From positions 224,688,001 through 224,752,000 of the forward strand of contig OX597814.1 of NCBI GenBank assembly GCA_951406725.2: 64,000 nucleotides of DNA, given 5' to 3'. Positions 58,758 to 61,372 of the stretch are shown here, piece after piece. The first letter of the stretch is position 1, and each line of letters begins with the position of its first letter. Under the pieces are notes generated by a model. That model searched no databases. It saw only the letters and a list, made by a program, of their open reading frames with translations, and was not told the DNA's origin. The position numbers and the translations under genes were made by a program. This stretch comes from Octopus vulgaris (lineage: Eukaryota).

Positions 58758-58830
58758 AGATGTGTGAATGTCTTTCGTAAAAACTTCACTACAAAAGTTC
58801 TTCAACTCTTGTCATTTTATCTTATTTCAG

Positions 58831-58937
58831 TTGTATGTGCTGATGGCAGTTATTACAAGTTCTCGTTCAACACTAAAGGAGACTGCACCAGGGAAGTCTA
58901 TGCACAGTTCCTGGAAATGACAGACGATCGCTCATAG
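58831..58937 (+). CDS. WDR45B: WDR45B last coding exon: [35 protein letters not shown]
   Basis: tttcag acceptor, TAG stop at 58935-58937. Confidence 0.96.
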
Positions 58938-59265
58938 TATCTGCCGTCTTTGTTATCTTGTTTCCTTCTCTTTTATCTCTATCTGTCTATCCCTGCCTAA
59001 CTCTGTCTCTCTCTCTCTCTCTCTCCCTCTCACATCCATTCTTTCTCTTCTACCATGTACATTTCTTGCTGAGGAATACTTGAAGAGAATGTCATATCAA
59101 AAGACACACATATGATGGTGCTTTAATTACTGATAACAATTATGGTTATACAAACCAAAAGCAAAATTCCATATGGAAAATGAAAGACAAAAAACACACA
59201 AAAACAACTTACCTAAAGAAGAAATGCAGCTAATATATTTCCAGACATACTTGTGTACCCATGTA

Positions 59266-59286
59266 AATAAATAATGGATAAATAAA
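59266..59286 (+). promoter_or_regulatory. Candidate polyadenylation signals (two AATAAA) for WDR45B
   Basis: AATAAA at 59266 and 59281, about 330 nt after the stop; AT-rich context makes chance hits likely. Confidence 0.35.
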
Positions 59287-60367
59287 TCATAATACATTTA
59301 TGCTAGATTTCACACATTTAAATATATTATATATATTCTATATTATCATTATATATATATTATATACAAATTATTTATATGTAGAATTTGTTACTCTATA
59401 TATATATATATATATATATATCTTTTGTATAATATTCTCACTTCATGAAATCATCATCATCATTTAACATCCACTATTCCATGATGTGTGTGTGTGTAAA
59501 ATTGGTTTTGGAGTGGTGAAACTTGAAGCATATGAAGCTAATAGCATGTAATTTTGCACTGAAAAATTCTTTGGATAGAGAAAGTCAGAGGCTGCCAGTG
59601 GAATTCAAACGAACATCTTCTGTAAACATTACAGGCATTCTGCCATTGAACCAAAGATCTTTGGATTTTTTTTTCTATCCAAAGAGATTTTTATTCCAAT
59701 ATTTGCATGTTATTGTTTGTAGCTTTATTTGCTTTGAGTTCCTCCACAAAAAAAAAAAGAAAAGAAAAGAAAATTATTTTGCATTCTCTTGAAGTTTATA
59801 AATTCTGATATTATCATTATATGATATACAATCAAAATGAAACTTAAATTCGATGACTGGCATCTGCGCTAGGGGAGCGCTAAGAGCACCATCCAAGAGT
59901 GATCGTGCCAGAGCAGCTGACTGGCTTCCATGCCTGTGGTATGAAAAAAGCACCATTCAAGCGTGATCGTTACCAGCGTCGATGTGAAAAAATATTCGAG
60001 CAAGGTCATTGCCCATGCCGTTGGACTGGCTCCTGTGCAGGTAGCATGTAAAAAACACCATATGAACATGGCTGTTGCCAGTACTGCCTGACTGGCCCTC
60101 ATGCCAGTGGCACGTAAAAGCACCCACTACACTCTTGGAGTGGTTGGCGTTAAGAAGGGCATCCAGCTGTAGAAACTCTACCAGATCAGATTGAAGCCTG
60201 GTGCAGCCATCTGGTTCGCCAGTCCTCAGTCAAAATCGTCCAACCCATGCCAGCATGGAAAGCAGACATTAAATGATGATGATGATATACACACACACAC
60301 ACACCAGAGTAAGCACATAAAAGTGATACAAGATGGAGAAAAATAGTATTCAAATACCAGAGGCAGA

Positions 60368-60555
60368 GTAATATGCTTTATTATTAAAGCTGTAAAAGCA
60401 TCACAAAAGAACTGTTGCTCAGAGTTCCATGTCCCCATTCGTTGGACAGTTTTGGTTTTCTCAATCAAAATTTGTCTGATGAACAGGAATGTGAAACTCT
60501 GAGTAACAGTTTTTTTTGTGTGTGATGTTTTTGCAGCCTTAATAATAAAGTATGT
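60368..60555. mobile_element. Palindromic element made of two inverted hammerhead-bearing (Penelope-like) ends
   Basis: Arms of about 80 bp (atatgctttattattaaagctgtaaaagcatcaca... / ...tgtgatgtttttgcagccttaataataaagtatgt), each containing a hammerhead-type motif. Confidence 0.6.
60473..60508 (+). ncRNA. Type I minimal hammerhead ribozyme motif with canonical core
   Basis: TGT-CTGATGA-ACA(GGAA)TGT-GAAA-CTCTGAG-TA-ACA; predicted cleavage after GUA at 60505. Confidence 0.75.
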
Positions 60556-60917
60556 CATCATCATCATCATCATCATCATACGTCCATTTTCCATGCTGGC
60601 ATGGGTTGGACGGTTCGACTGGGGTCTGGAAAGTCAGGAGGCTGCACCAGGCTCCAGTCTGATCTGGCAGTGTTTCTACAGCTGGATGCCCTTCCTAACG
60701 CCAACCACTCTGAGAGTGTAGTAGGTGCTATTTTACATGCTACCGGCACTGGCTAGTGGGGGCTGGCATCGACCTCGATCTGATGGTGCTTTTTACATGA
60801 TGCTGGCATGGAAGCCAGTCAAGGCAGCGCTGGCATCGGCCACATTCGGATGGTGCTTTTTTTGTGCCACTGGCACAGGGATCACAACTACAATTTCGAT
60901 TTGATTGTGATTTAATT

Positions 60918-60960
<43 letters not shown>

Positions 60961-60964
<4 letters not shown>

Positions 60965-61243
60965 GAGAATTCACGAAAAAACAAAAGACGAAGACAGGTG
61001 GTGTAGAAAACAAACAGATGTATTAGTATAACGCTCAGGAAGTGAAAAAGTCTTTAACGTTTTGAGCCGACGCTCTTCCACAGAAAGGAACACAGAAAAA
61101 AACAAGGAGAGAAAAAAATGTGTAGTGGCTACCGATCCATCATGGTGACTGTGTTTGATACATATGTATCAAACCAACATCTTCTGTAAACATTACAAAC
61201 ATTCTGCCATATTTATATATGGGGTGTGTATATATATATATAA

Positions 61244-61280
<37 letters not shown>

Positions 61281-61372
61281 GGGAGAATTCTCAAAAAAAC
61301 AAAAGACGAAGACAAGTGGTGTAGGCAAAAAACAGATGTATTAGTTTAATGCTCAGGAAGTGAAAAAGTCTG
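60961..61372 (-). mobile_element. Two family H copies, each starting at a (TA)n tract
   Basis: gggagaattc..aaaaaacaaaagacgaagaca..gatgtattagt..gctcaggaagtgaaaaagtct repeated at about 60963 and 61281. Confidence 0.65.

What the first reader, a model, noticed from the sequence alone, without database searches (positions are those of the whole stretch)
60368..60555. Canonical-core hammerhead ribozyme paired with an inverted defective twin, 1.5 kb downstream of the WDR45B stop
Seen, + strand: helix I TGT/ACA (extendable), CTGATGA (60476-60482), helix II ACA-GGAA-TGT, GAAA (60493-60496), near-palindromic helix III ACTC-T-GAGT, GUA cleavage triplet (60503-60505), then AATAAA downstream. The left arm on the - strand reads CTGT-CCAACGA-ATG(GGGA)CAT-GGAAC-TCTGA-GCA-ACAG: the same scaffold with helix II still paired but a broken core. 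Established: minimal type I hammerheads mark Penelope-like pseudo-LTRs and retrozymes, and often need dimerisation. Inference: an inverted PLE-end insertion. The intact motif is sense to the gene and could cut read-through RNA, while the upstream antisense arm could sequester it as a natural off-switch. The helix II differences may simply reflect CpG decay.
Basis: partly seen in the sequence, partly recalled or inferred. Interest (0 to 1): 0.85.

Follow-up and report, generated by a model that had tools for sequence, protein, structure and literature searches.

The report
Decayed jumping-gene end with hammerhead
This is one of more than a thousand scattered copies of the folded-back tail end of a Penelope-type jumping gene; its textbook-looking self-cutting RNA core most likely arose by ordinary mutational decay of a non-standard ancestral core, and it is probably not a control switch for the neighbouring WDR45B gene.

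Summary
The motif is real and at the stated coordinates (1 hit in 64 kb; 4 hits in 300 shuffles). It is not locus-specific. The palindrome is a dispersed repeat, really spans 60304-60550 with a ~70-nt tail on one arm only, and longer copies run upstream into RT and GIY-YIG frames of a Hydra-like Penelope element.

The family's usual core is CCGACGA (U4C). Of 1,226 genome-wide matches, 224 read TG and 210 read CA at that CpG (p=0.53 for 1:1). So the 'canonical' arm and the 'broken' arm are two decay products of one non-canonical ancestor; 7 of the 8 CpGs here have decayed, and at least 98 other arms look as intact.

An off-switch is unlikely. Two AATAAA signals lie 1.2 kb upstream. The two arms form a -97 kcal/mol hairpin that leaves the hammerhead fold a predicted probability near 1e-31, and near 1e-4 or less even alone. 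Transcription and cleavage were not tested. Mild interest: a family that spread with a U4C core, plus a young intact sister family.

The parts
60304..60550 (.). Whole insertion: fold-back pair of 5'-truncated 3' ends of a Penelope-like retroelement, set in a (CA)n/(TA)n-type microsatellite
   Evidence: Ends match those of other copies; 2,289 candidates genome-wide, 40 scored, 70-84% identical
   Evidence: 82% identical over 60 nt to the tail of copy L013; one-sided tail seen in most copies
60412..60449 (-). Left-arm hammerhead, core CCAACGA; departs from the canonical core at U4C (ancestral), G5A (CpG decay), A13G and U16.1C; very likely dead
   Evidence: Sequence; column counts
60459..60462 (.). 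Fold-back centre (5'-truncation and inversion point)
   Evidence: arms 60405-60458 and 60463-60516; spacers differ between copies, -8 to 1,451 nt
60472..60509 (+). Right-arm minimal type I hammerhead: core CTGATGA, 3-bp helix II with GGAA loop, palindromic helix III ACTCTGAGT, predicted cut after 60505; helix I cut to 4 bp by a C-to-T change and a 1-nt insertion
   Evidence: all four CpGs decayed
60544..60549 (+). AATAAA that belongs to the element (present at both arm ends across the family), not a locus-specific signal
58831..58937 (+). Last coding exon of WDR45B (WIPI3), stop at 58935-58937
   Evidence: the splice acceptor is read from the sequence
59266..59286 (+). Two AATAAA hexamers, likely the WDR45B poly(A) signals, about 1.2 kb upstream of the hammerhead
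   Evidence: use not shown
60116..60286 (+). Copy of an unrelated repeat, inverted partner of 60563-60732; lengthens the hairpin in any read-through RNA
   Evidence: 85% complementary
60563..60732 (-). Second copy of that unrelated repeat

Best explanation
This is a decayed, folded-back pair of 3' ends of a Penelope-like retrotransposon family with over a thousand genomic copies, and its canonical hammerhead core likely arose by neutral CpG decay of a U4C ancestral core. Shown: dispersed family, one-sided tail, microsatellite target, collinear link to RT and GIY-YIG frames, commonest core CCGACGA, equal TG and CA decay. Inferred: during insertion into a TA/CA microsatellite the copy was cut short just 5' of the hammerhead and an inverted second copy was joined, giving two equal arms; methyl-CpG deamination then turned CCGACGA into CTGATGA on one arm and CCAACGA on the other. 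In the parent element the hammerhead would have cut tandem transcripts as a dimer through the palindromic helix III. Here it most likely does nothing: the main WDR45B mRNA probably ends upstream, and any read-through RNA is predicted to zip the two arms into one long duplex.
For: Family. Core CpG pattern over 54 arms of 27 insertions: position 4 C30/T22/A2, position 5 G40/A14. Whole genome: 1,226 matches, reversed-pattern control 0; TG 224, CA 210, p=0.53; the other 792 are CG or TA, and by hand count of the first 100 rows, 57 are CG, 3 TA, and 32 have all four CpGs intact. The two arms of one insertion agree at non-CpG diagnostic columns (25 of 26, 23 of 27, 22 of 26, 18 of 26; chance 17, 15, 12, 10) but not at the position-4 CpG (7 of 27; chance 13): same template, later independent decay. 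The exact 30-mer of this arm recurs at 4 other places among the first 100 of 224 rows. 98 arms carry canonical core, paired helix II and GTA. Parent: ORF fragments, 3' body and arm in order on one strand in L081 and L083, with a partial arm in L082, of 8 regions fetched. Layout (inverted truncated copy, one-sided tail, (TA)n target) is as described in PMC8557442. Folding.
Against: Both arms have a compensated helix II (A-U on the right, U-A on the left); by hand count such double changes are 15 of 22 against an expected 54%, p=0.12, a slight excess that I cannot call significant. A young sister family has a canonical CTGATGA core in 27 of 30 loci, so U4 exists in the lineage; but this copy has the old family's diagnostic letters (GGAA loop, T before GAAA, T at the helix III centre). 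Position 7 is partly a subfamily difference, not only decay. The 27 insertions were picked by likeness to this window. Pfam found no family in the intact 727-aa frame. No RNA data and no orthologous locus were examined. Methylation is inferred from CpG depletion (window o/e 0.38).
Confidence: 0.88

Rival explanations
1. Co-opted regulator: the right arm cuts WDR45B read-through or long-3'-UTR RNA and the left arm switches it off.
For: All 13 core positions are canonical and the three closing pairs form; sense to the gene; an AATAAA follows at 60544; helix III can form a trans duplex of -7.9 kcal/mol.
Against: Orientation is a coin toss. AATAAA at 59266 and 59281 come first. The left arm is transcribed first and the hairpin is -97 kcal/mol; predicted hammerhead fold 3.6e-31 with both arms, 2e-4 to 9e-7 alone; in the homodimer fold of this arm only helix III survives, whereas an unmutated copy keeps helices I and III. 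7 of 8 CpGs decayed, helix I shortened. Minimal PLE hammerheads showed no monomer cleavage and low dimer cleavage (PMC4209133). The nearest other family copy is 22 kb downstream.
Confidence: 0.04
2. No cleavage, but the long duplex matters: read-through RNA forms a hairpin of several hundred base pairs (with the flanking inverted repeats) that is edited by ADAR or aids termination or retention.
For: Nested inverted repeats; -395 kcal/mol fold for 60100-60750. Heavy A-to-I editing in cephalopods is recalled, not from a call, and the host being an octopus is my inference.
Against: Needs read-through, which is untested; such pairs arise often where several families share microsatellite targets (e.g. 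L024); no sign of selection.
Confidence: 0.05
3. The palindrome is a MITE or other fixed-length non-autonomous unit that spread as one piece.
For: Many copies are 165-195 nt palindromes; 43 of 52 inverted pairs have spacers under 25 nt.
Against: Those copies were largely selected by the palindromic query. Centres differ in length and sequence (-8 to 1,451 nt), the tail is one-sided, 15 of 27 unselected copies have no inverted partner, and arms continue into an RT/GIY-YIG element.
Confidence: 0.03

Closest known systems
Hydra-clade Penelope-like elements (Craig et al. 2021, PMC8557442), especially the Hydra-2_aMil hammerhead
   Same: Hydra-2_aMil has the same helix I (ctgt/acag), helix III (actc-n-gagt) and GTA cut site. 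The young sister ORF has RWK, DKT, YRDD, a C-terminal GIY-YIG-like motif, CxxC and CxH. (TA)n target; an inverted 5'-truncated copy is noted for Penelope-13_HM.
   Different: All Hydra cores listed in File S2 have U4 (the table lists canonical motifs); this family's usual core has C4. Helix II is 3 bp. The linker reads CNF-x5-C, not CxC-x5-C. Neither family here is Hydra-1_Obim: hammerhead and N-terminus differ, and two motif look-ups in the supplement gave 0 hits.
Minimal PLE hammerheads (Cervera and de la Pena 2014, PMC4209133)
   Same: Type I, short helix I, small palindromic helix III suited to dimers; mostly single motifs from truncated copies; pairs on opposite strands 100-700 bp apart already reported in Schistosoma.
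   Different: No long helix II, no G10.1-C11.1 pair; the core variant they report is U3-A8, not U4C.
Natural U4C hammerhead variant of a viroid (as cited in Perreault et al. 2011, PMC3088659)
   Same: The same core change; said to lower activity considerably in vitro yet allow infectivity.
   Different: There a rare variant in a full hammerhead; here the majority state of a retrotransposon family.
Non-LTR retrozymes (PMC7229834; bioRxiv 10.64898/2026.07.22.740005)
   Same: Type I hammerhead in an animal repeat with PLE ties.
   Different: Retrozymes are head-to-tail tandem monomers without an ORF; this is an inverted fragment of an ORF-bearing element.

Membership tests
Type I hammerhead ribozyme (right arm) | Core C3 U4 G5 A6 N7 G8 A9 G12 A13 A14 A15 U16 H17 | tested here: met
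   criteria as in PMC3088659. The left arm fails at 4 positions.
Type I hammerhead ribozyme (right arm) | Helices I-III close on the core | tested here: met
   Pairing is possible: 4, 3 and 3-4 bp
Type I hammerhead ribozyme (right arm) | Fold is populated in its context | tested here: not met
   predicted probability 2e-4 to 9e-7 alone, 3.6e-31 with the left arm (secondary-structure model only)
Type I hammerhead ribozyme (right arm) | Match to an Rfam hammerhead model | tested here: not met
   none among 19 matches at E<=10; minimal variants may fall outside the models
Type I hammerhead ribozyme (right arm) | Self-cleavage after H17 | not testable with these tools
   Needs in vitro transcription
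Penelope-like element (EN+, C-terminal GIY-YIG) | Single ORF with RT then GIY-YIG upstream of the hammerhead end | tested here: met
   Old family: broken frames collinear with the arm. Young sister: 727-aa frame. Named by motifs, by homologues with PF01541/PF26215 and Atlas clusters; direct Pfam scans were blank
Penelope-like element (EN+, C-terminal GIY-YIG) | 5'-truncated, tandem or inverted insertions with a one-sided tail | tested here: met
   young copies L132, L142 and L146 carry the end at both sides of the ORF. The tail is ~70 nt, longer than the 30-40 bp in PMC8557442
Hydra clade of PLEs | RWK and DKT motifs; CxxC and CxH in the endonuclease | tested here: met
   on the young sister ORF (43-71% identical to old-family fragments)
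Hydra clade of PLEs | CxCX5C linker | tested here: not met
   CNFKNESSC in the young ORF; most old fragments also have Phe or Tyr, one (L087) has Cys. Hence filed as Hydra-like, not as a member
Hydra clade of PLEs | Insertion into (TA)n | tested here: met
   Flanks
Hydra clade of PLEs | Canonical hammerhead | tested here: inconclusive
   Met in the young family; the old family's usual core is U4C
Hydra clade of PLEs | Placement in an RT tree with named Hydra elements | not tested
   The reference proteins were seen only as text in a supplement
Non-LTR retrozyme | Head-to-tail tandem monomers of a few hundred nt, no ORF | tested here: not met
MITE | Uniform length, symmetric terminal repeats | tested here: not met

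The most novel reading that the evidence does not exclude
A retrotransposon family spread to over a thousand copies with a weakened U4C hammerhead, and methyl-CpG decay has since written the canonical core into about a fifth of them (224 of 1,226), so the genome holds a hundred or more ribozymes potentially more active than their ancestor; some, perhaps this one, cut host transcripts in vivo.
Probability: 0.07. Interest if true: 0.6.

Novelty: new member of a known kind. Interest (0 to 1): 0.2.

Why it matters
For this locus, little: it is an ordinary retrotransposon remnant. Two by-products have modest value. A PLE family that multiplied with a U4C core bears on the open question of whether PLE hammerheads are needed for transposition (raised in PMC8557442), and gives a natural C4/U4 series to assay beside a young intact sister family. 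It is also a warning for genome scans: a perfect hammerhead core in a methylated genome can be made by CpG decay and is no sign of selection.

Tried and rejected
Rfam: no hammerhead match. RNA evidence: one search gave 'no RNA holder listed' on record; 14 probable RNA runs held 0.26-0.33 of the words of 58800-60700, but no reads were laid (one search gave no result), so this is no evidence either way on the 3' end or on read-through. For the same reason the locus was not seen in other species. Pfam on four old-family fragments, on the short WDR45B exon and on the intact ORF: nothing significant. PDB search with the ORF: nothing significant. Homologue search with an old-family fragment: 0 hits among 296 candidates. 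A GIY-YIG-like remnant in L057 is separated from the arm by other repeats and was dropped. My first guess of the Neptune clade (notebook) was replaced by Hydra-like. One measurement (arm spacing) returned nothing because of my pattern and was redone. Earlier findings of this scan: none. Lunse et al. 2016 on dimeric PLE hammerhead variants is not held.

Full report
Observation. A minimal type I descriptor gave 1 hit on both strands of the window, this one; 300 dinucleotide shuffles gave 4 hits in all. The palindrome folds at -98.6 kcal/mol, z -13.8. Rfam gave no hammerhead family among 19 matches at E<=10. The upstream exon is WDR45B/WIPI3, stop 58935-58937; AATAAA occurs at 59266, 59281 and 60544. 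The host looks like an octopus; that is my inference from recalled repeats and from likeness to Hydra-1_Obim, not a tool result.

It is a repeat family. The 188-nt query found 2,289 candidates in the 2.8-Gb genome; the 40 scored are 70-84% identical, most over the whole palindrome. In 27 distinct insertions (30 loci less 3 duplicates) one arm usually stops at AATAAAG and runs into (TA)n or (TG)n, while the other carries a ~70-nt tail. Among 27 copies picked only by the hammerhead pattern (30 loci less 3 partner arms), 12 have an inverted arm within 1.5 kb, one of them doubtful. Across 90 loci, some overlapping, 52 inverted pairs had spacers from -8 to 1,451 nt. Each inversion therefore has its own breakpoint; this is not a fixed MITE.

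Parent. Longer copies share an upstream body that leads to broken RT, linker and GIY-YIG frames. Of 8 regions fetched, L081 and L083 show frame, body and arm in order on one strand, L082 with a partial arm, L088 in inverted layout; four had no arm hit. A protein search then found a young sister family: 150 scored matches without stops, many in 727-aa frames, 99.5-99.7% identical among 10 copies. Its ORF has RWK, DKT, YRDD, GVVY..YTG, CxxC and CxH, the Hydra-clade marks in PMC8557442 (section 11), but the linker lacks the second Cys. Pfam was blank; homologues carry PF26215 and, in one case, PF01541. Hydra-2_aMil has the same helix I, helix III and cut site as this hammerhead. I file it as a Hydra-like PLE; no tree was built. 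No intact old-family ORF was seen among the 150 scored.

The canonical core is most likely derived. Over 54 arms the core and helix II show the CG/TG/CA pattern at four CpGs. A pattern allowing only those changes matches 1,226 places, control 0. At positions 4-5, 224 read TG (canonical U4 G5) and 210 read CA (core-breaking) (p=0.53); the other 792 are CG or TA. By my hand count of the first 100 rows: 57 CG, 22 TG, 18 CA, 3 TA, and 32 with all four CpGs intact. Selection for U4, or a U4 subfamily, would make TG exceed CA. The two arms of one insertion agree at non-CpG diagnostic sites far above chance but at the position-4 column in only 7 of 27; 9 of 27 show this window's TG/CA split, though that set was chosen by likeness to the window. 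One ancestor must explain both CTGATGA and CCAACGA here; CCGACGA does so with three CpG transitions. The right arm has lost 4 of 4 CpGs and the left 3 of 4. 98 other arms have canonical core, paired helix II and GTA (the pattern leaves out compensated forms such as this one). The pattern counts favour copies with no non-CpG change, so they are lower bounds biased to younger copies.

Against my reading: the young family has U4 (27 of 30 loci), as do all Hydra cores in File S2, so U4 is the clade norm and C4 a change in the old family; this copy still carries old-family letters. Both arms have compensated helix II pairs; the excess of such pairs is weak (15 of 22 by hand count, p=0.12).

Mechanism. 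In the parent the palindromic helix III would pair between two tandem copies (-7.9 kcal/mol; predicted dimers of an unmutated old copy and a young copy keep it plus helix I), matching the dimer model in PMC4209133 and PMC6765202. U4C is said to lower activity considerably in vitro (PMC3088659). At this locus decay shortened helix I to 4 bp and weakened helix II; the predicted share of the hammerhead fold is 2e-4 to 9e-7 for the arm alone and 3.6e-31 with the left arm, which is transcribed first. That is a permanent lock, not a switch, and I found no trigger to open it. These are secondary-structure predictions and ignore tertiary contacts and proteins. Whether RNA reaches the element is untested.

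Literature seen. PMC8557442: passages, section 11, supplement part 2 of 59 and search passages. PMC4209133: parts 1-2 of 4 of the text. PMC3088659: passages and section 8. PMC7229834, PMC6765202 and bioRxiv 10.64898/2026.07.22.740005: passages only; the preprint's supplements were not seen. Lunse et al. 2016: title in a reference list only. Searches found no report of a U4C core in a PLE family, but the library is partial, and Lunse 2016, supplementary figures of PMC4209133, Repbase and Dfam could hold one.

Verdict. A real hammerhead-shaped motif and a correct PLE call, but an ordinary decayed copy among many, with no sign of a role at WDR45B. New member of a known kind; interest 0.2, mostly for the U4C family and its intact sister.

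Noticed in passing
L120-L148, e.g. L139:211-2391 (G000:C2:164023311-164026907): A young, apparently intact Hydra-like PLE family: 727-aa frames, 99.5-99.7% identical, often in inverted pairs, hammerhead with canonical core and an A.A mismatch at the base of a 2-bp helix II. Not Hydra-1_Obim. Possibly recently active.
   Followed up: partly
L150, about 22 kb downstream of the finding (G000:C1:224770680-224771545): A second inverted insertion of the family with ~670 nt between arms; one arm reads CTGATGA, the other CCGATGA, the same decay pattern.
   Followed up: partly
window 60960-61150 and 61280-61371: Two copies (91% alike over 134 nt) of another repeat end beside (TA)n; the first has a hammerhead-like stretch on the minus strand near 61050-61083, resembling an intact CTGACGA motif ~21 kb downstream. 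Probably a different PLE family.
   Followed up: no
window 60116-60286 and 60563-60732: Two tail-to-tail copies of another common repeat flank the element, 85% complementary; with it they would form a very long duplex in read-through RNA, a possible editing substrate.
   Followed up: partly
L032, L040, L057, L060 and many palindromic copies: 5' truncation and inversion points cluster 5-15 nt upstream of helix I. Partly a query bias, but 43 of 52 inverted pairs have spacers under 25 nt; the hammerhead structure may stall reverse transcription. Unexplained.
   Followed up: partly
window 59605-59646 and 61169-61210: A 42-nt direct repeat, 93% alike, 1,564 nt apart, bracketing the repeat cluster.
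   Followed up: no
L149, G000:C1 about 224756000-224764000: CpG observed/expected rises to 0.84-1.34 against about 0.35 in the window: a possible unmethylated promoter region or young insertion.
   Followed up: no
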